A stretch of DNA of 64,000 bases from Chlamydiota bacterium. Its GTDB lineage: Bacteria > Chlamydiota > Chlamydiia > Chlamydiales > SM23-39. This document shows, piece by piece, positions 58,001 through 60,726 of the stretch. The notes beneath the pieces were generated by a model. The model worked only from the letters and a program-made list of their open reading frames with translations, was not told the origin of the DNA and did no database searches. Numbering within the stretch: position 1 is the first letter of the stretch; every line of letters begins with the position of its first letter. A program made the position numbers and the translations under genes. The stretch spans positions 96,745 through 160,744 of the forward strand of contig DAIDHZ010000001.1 in the NCBI GenBank assembly GCA_027451825.1, written 5' to 3'.

Positions 58001-58378
58001 AATGTGGAAAAACATTTCTGTAATGCGTAAAAATTGCGTAATTTCGTCTGGCATCAGCTTGTTGATCTCTGATTTCTCTATAGGAAATTAGATTTAGGTG
58101 GCGAGATTAGTGATCTCAGACCTTTTTTATTTCCAAGAGTTCCAAATAAAATGCTCTTAAAAGCATTTCTATTCGAAATCCAAAAAATTTATTTAATCTG
58201 AATTTACAGAAACGATGTTACACTACCAAACACTATTCCTTTTGGATGCGGCAGTATCCCAATCTTCGCCCCTGGCCAGCTCCCTATTTTAAAAGCCCTG
58301 GGGATGCTCTTGAAAAGTCCCATATCAATATGAAGGACTGGGTCAACTGTGGATTATCAAGCCATGGGCTATAGGGGA

Positions 58379-59275
58379 TTACTTAATTTTTTTATGATCG
58401 GCAATGACATCTTCAATGATGCGCCAACATTGCTTAGATTCTGAATTGTTTGGATTGGTAAGCCCTGCAGCAACCACCAAAGCCTTCCATAAGGTCCAAC
58501 CACGTGCACGAGCCCAAGTCCCTTGATCTAGGGGAAGCGCTTTTTGAAAAGTTTCTCTACTTCGTCCATGAAATAAGGTCCAGTTGATTGCAAGATCACA
58601 TGCTGGATCACCAGCAGCTAACTGACCAAAATCAATAACAGCACAAAGTTTGCCCTTTTGTACCAATAGATTGCCTGCACTTATATCACCATGAACCCAC
58701 ACTGGTAGATGTTTCCAAGAAGTTGAAAGGGCAGCTTCCCAAACCTCAGTTGCCATAGTAGCATCAATTTTATCCTTTAAGAAAGCAATAGAACGACGTG
58801 TTTCATTGTCATAAACCGATAGTGATCCTCCCCTAAAAAAGCTATGTAATCCAGGTGGTGGTCCACCCGTTGCATCAATTTTTTGTAGAGCTGTAAGAAA
58901 GTCACCAAGATCAATCGCCAACTCAACGAGATCGCCTATTTTCGCAGAGGCTGCGGTCTCACCATCAAGCCATCGATAAATGGACCATTTCCAAGGATAG
59001 TCATATTCAGGTTTTCCCATAGCCAGAGGTACAGGAATCAGAAGTGGAAGTCCAAGAGCCAATTGCGGTAACCATCGATGCTCTTTTTCTACCTGTAATT
59101 CATAATCAGCGGCGCTTGGCAAGCGAACTGACATATCTTTACCTAAGTGGAAAGTTCGATTGTCCCATCCACTTGTTGCAACAGGCTCGATAGAAAGCTC
59201 TTTCCATTGAGGAAATTGCGAAGCTATCAGACGACGTACAAGGGAAGCATCTATTGCTACACATTCTTCTTTCAT
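58379..59275 (-). CDS. Aminoglycoside/macrolide phosphotransferase-family kinase (APH/Mph-like)
   Basis: Catalytic loop HGDISAGNLLV (HGDxxxxN) and VIDFGQLAAGDPACDLA (DFG-like metal-binding motif). 298 aa. Confidence 0.75.
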   Translation of the reverse strand: MKEECVAIDASLVRRLIASQFPQWKELSIEPVATSGWDNRTFHLGKDMSVRLPSAADYELQVEKEHRWLPQLALGLPLLIPVPLAMGKPEYDYPWKWSIYRWLDGETAASAKIGDLVELAIDLGDFLTALQKIDATGGPPPGLHSFFRGGSLSVYDNETRRSIAFLKDKIDATMATEVWEAALSTSWKHLPVWVHGDISAGNLLVQKGKLCAVIDFGQLAAGDPACDLAINWTLFHGRSRETFQKALPLDQGTWARARGWTLWKALVVAAGLTNPNNSESKQCWRIIEDVIADHKKIK

Positions 59276-59793
59276 TCGGCTGTCTCCGCATCCCTTGTAG
59301 TAGCTCTATATCTCATGAGGCAATTTATCCCTCTTCCTGCAAAAACACCAAGGATGATGGTTGCAAAAAGTTCAAGCCCAAGGAATAAGAGTGACCCATT
59401 AAGGTGGGGCATCATTGAACTCATCATTCCAACTGAAAATTTTGAAGTAAAAATCGACATTGAGAGGATCAATGGAATCCAACTGCCTGGCATTTCAACT
59501 TTCTTTTTTTGCCTATCGAATTGGAGATTCAGCCTATGCATATGCAAAAATCCGATGGAAAACCCCACTCCCAAGCAAAGAAGCCAAAAAAGAATCGCTA
59601 AAGGATCAGTCGCATACTTTCCAAAAAATGAAAAAAGAGACCAACCAAAAAATATAGATGGGATCAAAAGCAATACCGCTATAGGTACCGCACTAGTCTT
59701 CCTTGCCTTTAGGCCGCCGAGCAATAGAATAGCGAATAAAGGCCACACAAAGAGTGGGATTTTAGTTATTATTTGTAGCATAAACTTCTCCAT
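59272..59793 (-). CDS. Hypothetical 4-TM membrane protein
   Basis: 173 aa, four hydrophobic helices, immediately downstream of padR (typical PadR plus membrane protein pair). Confidence 0.5.
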   Translation of the reverse strand: MEKFMLQIITKIPLFVWPLFAILLLGGLKARKTSAVPIAVLLLIPSIFFGWSLFSFFGKYATDPLAILFWLLCLGVGFSIGFLHMHRLNLQFDRQKKKVEMPGSWIPLILSMSIFTSKFSVGMMSSMMPHLNGSLLFLGLELFATIILGVFAGRGINCLMRYRATTRDAETAE

Positions 59794-60304
59794 ATTGTTC
59801 TTGTAATAAGGAAATATCCAATTCTAAATGAGCAAGCCCCACCAGAAGCGTCTTTAGCCAATAAGTTTTTCGTGGTGATTGTTTGATCAAAAAATCCTCG
59901 ATTTCCTTGTATTTTTCTCGGAGTTTTTTCAATTCTCGGAGTTTTTCATCGCAATGCCGTTGCATTTGTTCTTCTGTTGTTTCGTCGGTAAAAAAGAGTT
60001 TCAACAAAAATTCTTCTCTATGTTGATCAGGGTCTGGAGACCTTTTAAACCATTCTAAAAAAGCTTCTCTTCCTGCATTAGTGATGGTGAAAACTTCTTT
60101 TCTTCTTTTGCCTACATAAACTGGCTCAGCAGAAACAAACCCTTCTTTTGTAAGTAACTTGAGGGTGGGATAGATAGAAGCATCCGATTCTTGCCAAAAG
60201 TTGTTGGTCGATTCCTTAATCATTTCGCCTATTTCATAGCCAGATAGCGAGTCATTCAAAAGAAACCCCAGAATAACAAATTTAGTCTTCTTCTCTTTTG
60301 TCAT
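59762..60304 (-). CDS. PadR family transcriptional regulator
   Basis: Winged-helix motif SGYEIGEMIKESTNNFWQESDASIYPTLKLLTKEGFV and a C-terminal coiled-coil extension. 180 aa. Confidence 0.8.
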   Translation of the reverse strand: MTKEKKTKFVILGFLLNDSLSGYEIGEMIKESTNNFWQESDASIYPTLKLLTKEGFVSAEPVYVGKRRKEVFTITNAGREAFLEWFKRSPDPDQHREEFLLKLFFTDETTEEQMQRHCDEKLRELKKLREKYKEIEDFLIKQSPRKTYWLKTLLVGLAHLELDISLLQEQYGEVYATNNN

Positions 60305-60726
60305 AAAACATTCTTCAATTTACCTAATGATTAGGTATCATAAGAAATGACAGGCTACATGTCAACAGAATTTAGGTTTTTTAGATTTTTCAGAAAGGCT
60401 ATTGACCCTAACGTATGCGTCATGGCTGAAGGAATAATGATTTTTGCAGATAGGGAACTAAAGTAGGAATATCGAGGTAAGGGGTGGAAACGCCCCTTAT
60501 TTTTTTACGCAAATTTTACGCACTAGACTGGATGAAACTGGCAAAAAGAAACCCAAGAGGGACTAAACGATTTGTCTTTAAATCCTTTAGCTTCTTGGGC
60601 TTATTTACTCTGGCTTACGCCAGTTTATTGGAGGTGGAGAGATGCATTCAGAACTTTTGATTGGTTGCAATTTTATCAAAAATTACAAAATTATTCTCAA
60701 GAATTGCATAGACCTTGGGTGGAAGT

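What the first reader, a model, noticed from the sequence alone, without database searches (positions are those of the whole stretch)
58008..60545. 2.5-kb TIR-bounded cassette with APH/Mph-like kinase, membrane protein and PadR; no transposase
The cassette is bounded by the two arm types of the 53416..53616 unit. Its coding part appears distinctly GC-richer (by eye about 45%) than the surrounding approx 37%, consistent with horizontal acquisition. Cargo is a phosphotransferase-family kinase of the aminoglycoside/macrolide-resistance type plus a PadR-regulated membrane protein, a resistance or detoxification-like module in an obligate intracellular lineage. Immediately upstream (56687..58000) are two GNAT acetyltransferases, one Eis-like, giving a local cluster of drug-modifying-type enzymes.
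Basis: partly seen in the sequence, partly recalled or inferred. Interest (0 to 1): 0.6.

Follow-up and report, generated by a model that had tools for sequence, protein, structure and literature searches.

The report
Cargo bay of decayed tmRNA island
The 2.5-kb "cassette" is the cargo end of a broken-down integrative genomic island of the type that inserts at the tmRNA gene in environmental chlamydiae, and its repeat "arms" are attachment-site and integrase-promoter signals shared across the phylum, not transposon ends.

Summary
The arms are real: 4 copies of the 21-nt core in the window against 0 expected. The three genes are as described: an APH-family kinase, a DUF6622 membrane protein and PadR. 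The GC and codon-usage claim fails: the cassette is 0.400 GC and the window 0.403.

The arm motif TARTGCGTAAAANNTGCGTAA is not private to this cassette. It occurs in more than 115 loci, almost all Chlamydiota. There it sits at tightly fixed distances (65, 98, 102, 111 or 125 nt) from the tmRNA 3'-end core, or 131-140 nt upstream of tyrosine-integrase genes.

- The right arm (60505-60545) lies 102 nt from a displaced tmRNA 3' fragment (60631-60664).
- The left arm (58005-58044), with the DNA up to about 58117, is an integrase upstream region whose integrase is gone.
- 58156-58374 is the C-terminal remnant of a CHC2 primase-like gene. That gene lies tail-to-tail with the same kinase in the intact element of Parachlamydia acanthamoebae UV-7.

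So the cassette is the cargo compartment of a tmRNA-integrating island that lost about 7 kb of its integrase-to-primase backbone. Other copies of the cargo keep the right arm but not the left. There are no target-site duplications. The kinase is far below every curated resistance-family threshold. This is an ordinary island relic. The phylum-wide arm geometry is the more interesting by-product.

The parts
53407..53446 (+). L arm, copy 1. It is an integrase-upstream arm; the integrase is absent.
   Evidence: Matches 58005-58044 at 90%. Aligns with the arm that lies 131-140 nt upstream of integrase genes in L099, L106, L040, L065, UV-7 and L103.
53447..53515 (+). Remnant of the integrase upstream region, fused to a truncated att core.
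   Evidence: Alignment A1. L099 continues from this point into an integrase gene. The blastn breakpoint is at 53515.
53510..53549 (-). Half of a tmRNA 3'-end core (CCGTCCCCGTT, cut in the T-loop), followed by the TCTATAGAAA box of an attR-type junction.
   Evidence: Alignment A3 against the attR junctions of L099, L007, L022, L087, L100 and L019, which continue as GTTCGATTCTCTCCACCTCCA plus the native terminator.
53574..53616 (+). R arm, copy 1. It belongs to the class whose core lies 65 nt inside the arm, and it forms the attR side of the island.
53617..58004 (.). Second cargo compartment of the island: a DUF3298 lipoprotein, a 234-aa ORF, split AbiEi/AbiEii, and two GNATs.
   Evidence: Pfam and PADLOC hits. 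The same R-arm ... L-arm compartment with related genes occurs in OY970369, CAMFIG17, L099 and UV-7.
58005..58044 (+). L arm, copy 2.
58045..58117 (+). Conserved integrase upstream region: box TCTCTATAGGAAA at 58075-58087 and TTTAGGTGGCGAGATTAGTGATCTC at 58093-58117. Homology ends about 50 nt before the position where the integrase ATG lies in intact elements.
   Evidence: Alignment A1. No integrase-like sequence occurs anywhere in the window by tblastn.
58156..58374 (+). C-terminal stump (72 codons) of the island's CHC2 zinc-finger primase-like gene. It is a deletion scar.
   Evidence: 53% identity to residues 271-340 of the 340-aa UV-7 protein, E 7e-24. It lies tail-to-tail with APH, as in UV-7. 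The stump is shared with L123.
58379..59275 (-). APH-family small-molecule kinase of unknown substrate.
   Evidence: PF01636 E 1.6e-38. It scores below all NCBIfam resistance cut-offs. The best solved-structure match is APH(2'')-Id at E 1.9e-6. The HGD...N and IDFG motifs are visible in the translation. dN/dS is 0.14-0.22.
59272..59793 (-). DUF6622 membrane protein. Its stop codon overlaps the APH start codon.
   Evidence: PF20327 E 5e-10. 135 homologues were found; the only named one is Candidatus Protochlamydia, and several lie on contigs that also carry the APH. dN/dS is 0.11-0.22.
59762..60304 (-). PadR-family regulator with the C-terminal Vir_act_alpha_C domain. It is the first gene of the operon.
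   Evidence: dN/dS is 0.11-0.13.
60322..60365 (-). Operon promoter TTGACA-17-TATGAT (60365-60337), followed directly by the palindrome ACCTAATCATTAGGT (60336-60322), a candidate PadR operator.
   Evidence: The promoter scan gives 11 of 12 consensus matches. The same promoter and a near-identical palindrome are present in L123.
60478..60504 (+). GC-rich hairpin followed by a T-run, abutting the R arm. It is conserved in L064, L024 and L095.
   Evidence: Read directly from the sequence, and from flank conservation. The terminator scan did not flag it.
60505..60545 (+). R arm, copy 2. It belongs to the class whose tmRNA core lies 102 nt outside the arm.
60546..60630 (-). Conserved spacer. In other genomes it joins a complete tmRNA gene to this arm.
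   Evidence: Alignment A2: 89-95% identity to the DNA just downstream of full-length tmRNA in L060, L024, L061 and L042.
60631..60664 (-). Displaced tmRNA 3'-end fragment (TCTCTCCACCTCCA) with a conserved upstream flank (AAAAGTTCTGAATGCATC). It marks the junction with a further island to the right.
   Evidence: Alignment A2. 92-100% matches in about 25 loci. There is no intact tmRNA or tRNA in the window.

Best explanation
Window 53.5-60.66 kb is one degenerate member of a family of integrative genomic islands. These islands target the 3' end of the tmRNA gene (relatives target tRNA-Tyr and tRNA-Leu) in environmental Chlamydiota.

Layout of intact relatives, written in tmRNA sense:
- tmRNA core, then about 100 nt, then an R arm;
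- cargo bay 1;
- a replication module (CHC2 primase-like protein and DUF927 helicase) and the integrase, read toward bay 1;
- an L arm 131-140 nt upstream of the integrase start;
- cargo bay 2;
- a second R arm, then a repeat of the core.

A deletion of about 7 kb removed the integrase and all but the last 72 codons of the primase-like gene. That deletion brought the L arm next to the cargo.

The cargo is a self-contained operon, PadR-DUF6622-APH. It has its own strong sigma-70-type promoter and a palindrome at the transcription start. It is most likely a PadR-repressed, ligand-induced module in which a kinase phosphorylates a small molecule, possibly a xenobiotic or an antibiotic-like compound. 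The membrane protein's role is unknown.

The arms carry two TGCGTAA half-sites about one helical turn apart; the R arm adds two ACTGG repeats. They are most likely integrase arm-type binding sites (inferred). At the att sites they would position the integrase. At the integrase promoter they would allow autoregulation.

This relic has no integrase, and its distal core is cut in the T-loop. It is probably no longer excisable.

What is shown: the homologies, the geometry, the deletion scar and the purifying selection on the genes. What is inferred: which protein binds the arms, PadR control of the operon, and the kinase's substrate.
For: 1. The motif is phylum-wide. Nearly all are Chlamydiota, spread over several families. 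Only 1 hit occurs in 2.9 million viral contigs.
2. The arm-to-core distances are tightly fixed, in four geometries: 102-103 nt (about 18 cases), 98 nt (about 15), 65 nt (10) or 111 nt (11), and 124-126 nt (19).
3. A motif copy lies 131-140 nt upstream of the integrase start, in the same orientation, in 9 of 16 integrase-bearing loci, and likewise in UV-7 and L119.
4. Alignment A1 shows that window 58005-58117 is homologous to that integrase upstream region.
5. Window 58156-58374 is the C-terminal 72 aa of the UV-7 primase-like protein, E 7e-24. Its tail-to-tail arrangement with APH is the same as in UV-7.
6. Alignment A2 shows that window 60656-60505 is the tmRNA 3' end, spacer and R arm seen beside full tmRNA genes in L060, L024, L061 and L042.
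7. Alignment A3 shows that the 53.4-kb unit is an attR junction with a truncated core, fused to an integrase-upstream arm.
8. Complete islands with the same order are bounded by direct repeats of the tmRNA core: CAMFIG010000017 (10.7 kb) and OY970369.
9. Bay 1 content varies between genomes while the R arm persists:
   - PadR-DUF6622-APH in the window, L033 and L123;
   - APH alone in L060;
   - Glyoxalase-EVE-MarR-APH in UV-7;
   - GntR-DUF2000-APH in L119 and L080;
   - no APH in L064.
10. dN/dS is 0.11-0.22 for all three cassette genes.
11. The promoter matches the consensus at 11 of 12 positions, and it is conserved with the palindrome in L123.
Against: - No intact tmRNA gene and no integrase lie in the window, so the integration site is inferred from a 34-nt fragment and from homology.
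- The same cargo block occurs in the opposite orientation relative to the tmRNA cores in L123. The arms occur in four geometries. A simple single attP model does not predict either observation.
- Nothing here identifies the protein that binds the arms. They could instead serve an excisionase, a replication initiator or another regulator.
- L033 keeps the L arm but lacks the primase stump. The deletion history is therefore not a single shared event.
- The kinase's substrate and the PadR ligand are unknown.
Confidence: 0.8

Rival explanations
1. The unit is a non-autonomous, TIR-bounded transposable cassette (MITE- or MIC-like). A transposase encoded elsewhere recognises the L and R arms and moves it. 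The 210-bp unit at 53.4 kb is the empty version.
For: The shared inverted 21-30-nt core bounds both the 2.5-kb unit and the 210-bp unit. No recombinase lies inside.
Against: - There are no target-site duplications.
- The inverted part is internal, and the outermost 16-22 nt of the two arm types are unrelated.
- The arms sit at fixed distances from tmRNA cores and from integrase starts in many genomes.
- A primase-gene stump and an integrase upstream region lie inside the 'cassette'.
- Independent copies of the cargo lack the L boundary (L123, L060). In UV-7 and L119 about 7 kb of backbone lies between the L arm and the cargo.
- The two R arms differ in att geometry.
- GC and codon usage are ordinary.
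Confidence: 0.04
2. The arms are sites of a dedicated recombination or inversion system, or serve as portable homology. Cargo bays are swapped or flipped between islands at these sites. The L...R unit would then be an exchangeable module in an integron-like or shufflon-like sense, rather than a passive deletion product.
For: - Conservation of the R arm stops sharply at the edge of the motif, exactly where variable cargo begins.
- Bay content differs between genomes that share 95%-identical arm and terminator DNA (L064 against the window).
- The same PadR-DUF6622-APH block (89.5% nt identity) is inverted relative to the tmRNA cores in L123.
- Four arm-to-core geometries exist.
- APH travels with only its own ribosome-binding region, behind different upstream partners.
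Against: - No candidate recombinase other than the island integrase is consistently linked to the arms.
- The deletion scar shows that this particular L...R juxtaposition arose by loss of the backbone, not by insertion of a cassette.
- Variable cargo next to conserved att-proximal DNA is usual for genomic islands and needs no special mechanism.
Confidence: 0.12
3. This is a native chromosomal region and not an island. On this reading the arms are conserved regulatory elements of genes that happen to lie downstream of tmRNA in chlamydiae.
For: Composition is indistinguishable from the rest of the window. The arm plus spacer follows tmRNA directly in many genomes.
Against: - The arms also lie beside tRNA-Tyr and tRNA-Leu and upstream of integrases.
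- Direct repeats of the tmRNA 3' end bound the segments.
- Gene content between the arms differs between genomes.
- The nearest relative, L126 (ABC-F 86% nt identity), has different island genes and three core fragments at the same chromosomal position.
Confidence: 0.04

Closest known systems
tmRNA/tRNA-integrating genomic islands with tyrosine integrases, as catalogued by Islander/TIGER (PMC4383910). Examples recalled from my own knowledge: CP4-57 and VPI-1 at ssrA.
   Same: - Insertion at the 3' end of the tmRNA gene.
- The displaced 3' fragment marks the island ends.
- Tandem accretion of several islands at one site.
- A variable accessory cargo.
- An integrase gene close to arm-type repeats.
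   Different: - This copy has lost the integrase and one intact core.
- The arm motif, and its fixed distances from the core in four geometries, are specific to Chlamydiota. My three topical literature searches found no description of them.
The Parachlamydia acanthamoebae UV-7 element (FR872580.1, about 1,714-1,735 kb), and the similar element on L119.
   Same: - The same order: R arm, regulator genes, APH tail-to-tail with the CHC2 primase-like gene, DUF927 helicase, integrase, L-type arm, then AbiEii/AbiEi and a GNAT.
- APH is 83% identical at the protein level.
   Different: - UV-7 keeps the 7-kb replication and integration backbone.
- Its APH sits behind Glyoxalase-EVE-MarR instead of PadR-DUF6622.
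- Its core lies in the opposite orientation relative to the R arm.
Replicative chromosomal islands and satellites with DUF927 helicases (SaPI/PICI-like and P4-like elements). DUF927 is reported as a bona fide helicase of a S. aureus island in PMC5862659.
   Same: The intact relatives combine a tyrosine integrase, a primase-like protein and a DUF927 helicase.
   Different: No packaging genes and no sign of a helper phage were seen. Only 1 motif hit occurs in viral contigs. The window copy has no replication module at all.
Cis-mobilisable or defective elements left by island accretion (CIMEs of the Streptococcus thermophilus ICESt family). This comparison is from my own knowledge.
   Same: An att-flanked remnant without an integrase, lying in tandem with other elements at one attachment site.
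   Different: The distal core here is truncated, so even mobilisation in trans is doubtful.
MITEs and mobile insertion cassettes (MICs).
   Same: A short inverted repeat bounds a small unit and a cargo-carrying unit, neither of which has a transposase.
   Different: No target duplications, non-terminal repeats, fixed positions relative to tmRNA and integrase, and boundaries that are not conserved in other copies.
Aminoglycoside (APH) and macrolide (Mph) phosphotransferases.
   Same: The Pfam APH fold, with the catalytic HGD...N and IDFG motifs.
   Different: - The best NCBIfam resistance model scores 33.7 bits against a cut-off of 205.
- The best solved-structure match is E 1.9e-6.
- Thousands of closer, uncharacterised homologues exist.

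Membership tests
tmRNA/tRNA-integrating genomic island (tyrosine-integrase type) | Lies at the 3' end of a tmRNA or tRNA gene, bounded by a repeat of the gene's 3' end. | tested here: inconclusive
   A displaced 3' fragment lies at 60631-60664 and a half core at about 53510-53530, in direct orientation. The intact tmRNA gene is not in the window. Homologous spacer and arm DNA follows full tmRNA genes in L060, L024, L061 and L042.
tmRNA/tRNA-integrating genomic island (tyrosine-integrase type) | Encodes a tyrosine integrase. | tested here: not met
   tblastn with the island integrase finds nothing in the window. Only the integrase upstream region survives, at 58005-58117 and 53407-53515. Intact relatives encode a PF00589 integrase. 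This copy is therefore a relic, not a functional member.
tmRNA/tRNA-integrating genomic island (tyrosine-integrase type) | Backbone homologous to complete elements of the family. | tested here: met
   A primase-like stump (E 7e-24), the arms, the spacer and the gene order all match UV-7, CAMFIG010000017 and OY970369.
tmRNA/tRNA-integrating genomic island (tyrosine-integrase type) | Excises as a circle and re-integrates. | not testable with these tools
   This needs reads or an experiment. The truncated core and the missing integrase argue against it.
MITE / mobile insertion cassette | Terminal inverted repeats at the very ends of the element. | tested here: not met
   Only an internal stretch of 21-30 nt is inverted. 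The outer parts of the L and R arms are unrelated, yet each is conserved between its own copies.
MITE / mobile insertion cassette | Target-site duplication flanking each copy. | tested here: not met
   The flanks are ...GCTAAAATG|TGGAAAAAC and AACTGGC|AAAAAGAAA for the cassette, and ...GCAGGGCA|TGGTAAAAC and AACTGGC|GTAATATTT for the small unit. Neither pair contains a repeat.
MITE / mobile insertion cassette | Copies with the same two ends at unrelated sites, or empty sites. | tested here: not met
   The cargo recurs with the R arm but without the L arm in L123 and L060. It has both arms only in the syntenic L033. All contexts are tmRNA-linked. The search for empty sites was limited to the fetched loci.
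Clinically defined APH / Mph resistance kinases | Scores above the curated family cut-off of an NCBIfam resistance model. | tested here: not met
   The best is APH(3') at 33.7 bits against a cut-off of 205. The Mph models score 21-24 bits against cut-offs of 500-650.
Clinically defined APH / Mph resistance kinases | Protein-kinase-like APH fold with catalytic residues. | tested here: met
   PF01636 E 1.6e-38 across residues 34-260. VHGDISAGN and IDFG are present in the translation.
Clinically defined APH / Mph resistance kinases | Phosphorylates an aminoglycoside or a macrolide. | not testable with these tools
   This needs an enzyme assay or an MIC shift.
PadR-family regulator (two-domain subfamily) | N-terminal winged helix plus a C-terminal dimerisation domain. 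| tested here: met
   PF03551 E 4.5e-14 and PF10400 E 3.9e-6.
Eis-like acetyltransferase (GNAT at 57080-58000) | Sequence relationship to Eis. | tested here: inconclusive
   There is a PF13527 hit at E 2.3e-9. No solved structure, Eis included, matches at E<=0.01, and there is no NCBIfam hit.

The most novel reading that the evidence does not exclude
The double-TGCGTAA arm may be more than an ordinary integrase arm site. The full R arm spans about 43 nt: TTACGCAAATTTTACGCACTAGACTGGAnAAAACTGGC. It could be a phylum-wide organising signal of a so-far undescribed family of chlamydial integrative elements.

In that reading, the arms sit at fixed distances from the tmRNA core in four geometries, and they delimit cargo bays that are exchanged or inverted as units. 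The same PadR-DUF6622-APH block is found in both orientations relative to the att cores.
Probability: 0.2. Interest if true: 0.6.

Novelty: new member of a known kind. Interest (0 to 1): 0.38.

Why it matters
For this window, the analysis turns an apparent transposase-less resistance cassette into an ordinary island relic. It also removes the resistance label: the kinase is an uncharacterised APH-family enzyme.

More broadly, the analysis shows that environmental chlamydiae share a family of tmRNA/tRNA-targeting islands. These are intracellular bacteria, often assumed to have limited gene exchange. The islands have a recognisable 21-43-nt signature and carry regulator-plus-small-molecule-enzyme modules, toxin-antitoxin genes and Fic genes.

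Some of this cargo is more alike between lineages than a housekeeping gene appears to be. The kinase is 83% identical at the protein level to that of Parachlamydia UV-7. No UV-7-named ABC-F appeared among the 120 best hits, which run down to about 67% identity. Because names in that list are sparse, this comparison is only suggestive.

The arm motif gives a cheap handle for finding and delimiting such islands in chlamydial MAGs.

Tried and rejected
- Rfam at gathering thresholds on the whole window, and at permissive thresholds on 53.3-60.8 kb, found nothing relevant. The 34-nt tmRNA fragment is too short for the model, so it was shown by alignment instead.
- Exact-protein look-ups of the window's APH, DEAD helicase and autotransporter, and of the 100%-identical ABC-F, returned no contig. 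I could therefore neither name the source organism nor extend the window rightward to the tmRNA gene.
- I first read TAGGTGGCGAGA (58096-58107) as a degenerate tmRNA core. Alignment A1 shows that it is part of the conserved integrase upstream region. Its resemblance to the core may or may not be meaningful.
- I first read the 13 nt shared upstream of APH in L060 as a stump of DUF6622, which would imply a deletion in L060. The same ribosome-binding region occurs in UV-7 and L120, where the upstream neighbours differ. It belongs to APH and says nothing about direction.
- The 11-nt TTACGCAC arrays in L005 and L054 looked like iterons that might identify the protein binding the arms. They lie in a GC-rich, non-chlamydial MAG and are unrelated.
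- The viral-contig scan gave a single hit, in a giant-virus MAG, so the motif is not phage-borne.
- PADLOC found no defence-system match for the three cassette genes.
- Three topical literature searches found no description of the motif or of chlamydial tmRNA islands with this architecture.
- I did not run the metagenome scan or a structure prediction. Neither would change the verdict.

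
Full report
**1. The observation**

The repeats exist. The left arm 58005-58044 matches 53407-53446 at 90%. The right arm 60505-60542 matches 53574-53611 at 92%. All four share an inverted 21-nt core, TARTGCGTAAAANNTGCGTAA. The window holds four copies of that core, and none is expected from shuffles.

Only the inner 21-30 nt are inverted. The outer 16-22 nt of the L and R types are unrelated to each other, although each is conserved between its own two copies. Neither unit has flanking direct repeats.

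- an APH-family kinase, PF01636, E 1.6e-38;
- a DUF6622 membrane protein;
- a two-domain PadR regulator;
- two GNATs upstream.

The compositional claim is wrong. The cassette is 0.400 GC and its coding part 0.408, against 0.403 for the window. The 49 ORFs average 0.405 +/- 0.025. The kinase is 0.433 with a GC3 of 0.278, below the mean of 0.356, and PadR is 0.361. Codon usage of the kinase and PadR is mid-rank among 34 reference genes.

**2. The arms are a phylum-wide signal tied to tmRNA and to integrases**

Almost all come from Chlamydiota MAGs of several families. A handful of non-chlamydial hits are of the order expected by chance. Only one hit was found in 2.9 million viral contigs.

Across 106 R-type copies, conservation extends 22 nt beyond the searched motif. 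The consensus is TTACGCAAATTTTACGCACTAGACTGgAnAAAAcTGGC. It holds two TTACGCA and two ACTGG repeats, about one helical turn apart. Conservation stops sharply at the other edge of the motif.

ARAGORN places tmRNA, tRNA-Tyr or tRNA-Leu genes next to many copies. I measured each copy's distance to the tmRNA 3'-end 12-mer TCTCCACCTCCA. The copies fall into four tightly defined geometries:

| Position of core relative to the arm | Distance (nt) | Approximate count |
|---|---|---|
| Upstream, sense | 102-103 | about 18 |
| Downstream, antisense | 98 | about 15 |
| Downstream, sense | 65 or 111 | 10 and 11 |
| Upstream, antisense | 124-126 | 19 |

A further copy lies 131-140 nt upstream of the start codon of a PF00589 tyrosine integrase, in the same orientation. 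This holds in 9 of 16 integrase-bearing loci, and also in P. acanthamoebae UV-7 and in L119.

Complete examples show the whole plan:
- In CAMFIG010000017, a full tmRNA gene and a repeat of its 3' end bound a 10.7-kb island. The island has one R arm about 100 nt inside each end. Its integrase lies in the middle, with an L-type arm 134 nt upstream of it.
- OY970369 has the same plan, with a truncated integrase.

**3. What the window holds**

Read on the minus strand, which is the tmRNA sense:
- 60664-60631 is a displaced tmRNA 3' fragment.
- 60630-60546 is the spacer that follows complete tmRNA genes in L060, L024, L061 and L042, at 89-95% identity (alignment A2).
- 60545-60505 is the R arm in the 102-nt geometry.
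- Next come a hairpin and the PadR-DUF6622-APH operon.
- 58374-58156 (on the plus strand) is the last 72 codons of a CHC2 zinc-finger primase-like gene. It is 53% identical to residues 271-340 of the 340-aa UV-7 protein, E 7e-24. It lies tail-to-tail with the kinase exactly as in UV-7.
- 58117-58005 is homologous to the conserved integrase upstream region: arm, box, then TTTAGGTGGCGAGATTAGTGATCTC. Homology ends about 50 nt before the point where the integrase ATG lies in L099, L106, L040, L065, UV-7 and L103 (alignment A1).
- No integrase-like sequence exists anywhere in the window.

A deletion of roughly 7 kb therefore removed the integrase, the DUF927 helicase and most of the primase-like gene. 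It brought the L arm next to the cargo.

Beyond the L arm lies the second cargo bay, 58004-53617. Its AbiEi and AbiEii genes are both split. The island ends at 53616-53510 with an attR-type junction of R arm, 26 nt, the TCTATAGAAA box, 20 nt and then the core. The tmRNA core there is cut in the T-loop and fused to another orphaned integrase upstream region plus L arm (alignment A3; L099 sequences). L053 has the same fused junction.

It is the junction between two decayed islands. Its R arm belongs to a different att geometry from the cassette's R arm.

The nearest relative I found is L126, with ABC-F at 86.1% nt identity. It carries different island genes and three core fragments at the same position, the last one 60 nt from ABC-F. 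The island array therefore occupies the interval between tmRNA and ABC-F.

**4. Is the L...R unit mobile as such?**

The cargo recurs in other genomes, as follows:
- L033 is syntenic with the window. It has both arms, but the R arm is degenerate and there is no primase stump.
- L123 holds the three genes and the primase stump at 89.5% nt identity. It has an R arm next to PadR but no L arm. The whole block is inverted relative to the tmRNA cores.
- L060 has tmRNA, spacer, R arm and then the kinase alone.
- UV-7, L119 and L080 place the kinase behind Glyoxalase-EVE-MarR or GntR-DUF2000.
- L064 shares arm and hairpin DNA at 95% identity, but holds MerR, EVE, MarR, SnoaL and TetR, with no kinase.

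The kinase travels with its own ribosome-binding region behind different partners. The constant features are the R arm and the end of the primase gene. The L boundary is not constant.

**5. The cargo**

The three ORFs overlap and form an operon. The PadR and DUF6622 reading frames overlap by 32 nt, and the DUF6622 stop overlaps the APH start (ATGA).

The promoter is TTGACA-17-TATGAT at 60365-60337, matching the consensus at 11 of 12 positions. The palindrome ACCTAATCATTAGGT follows it directly. Both are conserved in L123. That PadR represses the operon at this palindrome is an inference from how the family usually behaves.

All three genes are under purifying selection, with dN/dS of 0.11-0.22.

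The kinase keeps the HGD...N and IDFG catalytic motifs. It nevertheless scores far below every curated resistance model, at 33.7 bits against a cut-off of 205. It matches solved APH(2'')-Id only at E 1.9e-6. It has thousands of closer, uncharacterised homologues. The named ones are chlamydial, including UV-7 at 83% identity.

DUF6622 homologues number 135. The only named one is Candidatus Protochlamydia, and several lie on contigs that also carry the APH. Some are paired with PadR without the kinase.

The 'Eis-like' label for the second GNAT rests on PF13527 alone.

**6. Mechanism and rivals**

The best-supported reading is that the cassette is cargo bay 1 of a decayed tmRNA-integrating island. 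Its arms are att-proximal and integrase-promoter sites, most plausibly integrase arm-type binding sites. That last step is inferred from three things: the phased half-sites, the fixed distance from the crossover core, and the position upstream of the integrase gene.

The transposon model fails on target duplications, on terminal repeats and on conservation of the boundaries.

A more adventurous reading stays open at low probability. In it, the arms mediate exchange or inversion of cargo bays. Three observations keep it open: the sharp conservation edge at the arm, the four geometries, and the inverted cargo block in L123.

A purely native, non-mobile origin is contradicted by three observations:
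- the core repeats;
- the links to integrases and tRNA genes;
- the content differences between close relatives.

**7. Novelty**

tDNA islands, their displaced fragments and their tandem accretion are well known (PMC4383910). DUF927-type island helicases are described (PMC5862659). My three topical searches found no account of this chlamydial family or its motif. That is a limited search, not proof of absence.

The finding itself is an ordinary relic. The arm signature is a useful, modestly novel by-product.

Noticed in passing
L123:5760-9131 compared with window 58228-60664: The same PadR-DUF6622-APH-primase-stump block (89.5% nt identity) lies in the opposite orientation relative to the tmRNA core repeats in L123. 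More generally, the arms occur in four fixed geometries relative to the core: 65 or 111, 98, 102 and 125 nt. A single attP model does not explain this.
   Followed up: partly
window 60627-60664: A fragment of about 37 nt (CCAATCAAAAGTTCTGAATGCATCTCTCCACCTCCAAT) recurs at 92-100% identity in about 25 chlamydial loci. It consists of a conserved flank plus the tmRNA 3' end. Several copies often occur per locus (L055 x3, L126 x3, and L079, L080, L082, L113). It looks like the att junction of yet another island family.
   Followed up: partly
L083:236-602 and 2478-2844 (OY970369.1, about 632-635 kb): Two full-length tmRNA genes with the identical tag peptide GNPELELQAA lie 2.2 kb apart. Each is followed at about 103 nt by an R-arm copy. 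This suggests that an island carries or duplicates a complete tmRNA gene.
   Followed up: no
window 55346-56727: The AbiEi antitoxin and AbiEii toxin genes are each split into two ORFs (55346-55570 with 55638-55955, and 55952-56158 with 56059-56727). In OY970369, L033 and UV-7 they are intact. This is a pseudogenised type IV toxin-antitoxin or abortive-infection pair.
   Followed up: partly
window 52081-53238: A Fic-domain protein (PADLOC SoFic, E 5e-47) follows the orphaned L arm. The same gene, at 88-91% nt identity, sits in different positions relative to the arms in L007, L078 and L099. In L099 it is circularly permuted relative to the window.
   Followed up: partly
window 60727-62772 and 63018-63989: Immediately beyond the displaced tmRNA fragment lies a 681-aa autotransporter with a beta-propeller-like passenger (PF03797, PQQ_2). 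It is followed by a transposase-like ORF that the window's end may cut. I judged the ORF IS66-like by eye and did not scan it. Both probably belong to a further island between this one and the tmRNA gene.
   Followed up: no
window 15930-17081: An F-box-like domain protein (PF12937, E 1e-7). This is a eukaryote-type domain, typical of amoeba-associated chlamydiae.
   Followed up: no
L005:359-460 and L054:480-579: About nine tandem 11-nt repeats of TTACGCAC-like units occur in a GC-rich, apparently non-chlamydial MAG (bacterium SO_2016_GW1_67). They are iteron-like, and their resemblance to the chlamydial arm is probably coincidental.
   Followed up: partly
L122:2108-2128 (IMGVR GVMAG-S-1035082-51): This is the only viral-collection hit of the arm motif. 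It lies on a 55.8-kb contig binned as a giant-virus MAG. It could be chance, chlamydial DNA mis-binned from an amoeba sample, or a real transfer.
   Followed up: no
L125:9481-10498 and L124:10001-10504: PadR-DUF6622 occurs without the kinase in a Parachlamydiales genome, among many small detoxification and regulator genes. DUF6622 also occurs alone, between obg and a tail-specific protease gene, in another genome. The membrane protein is therefore not tied to the kinase.
   Followed up: partly
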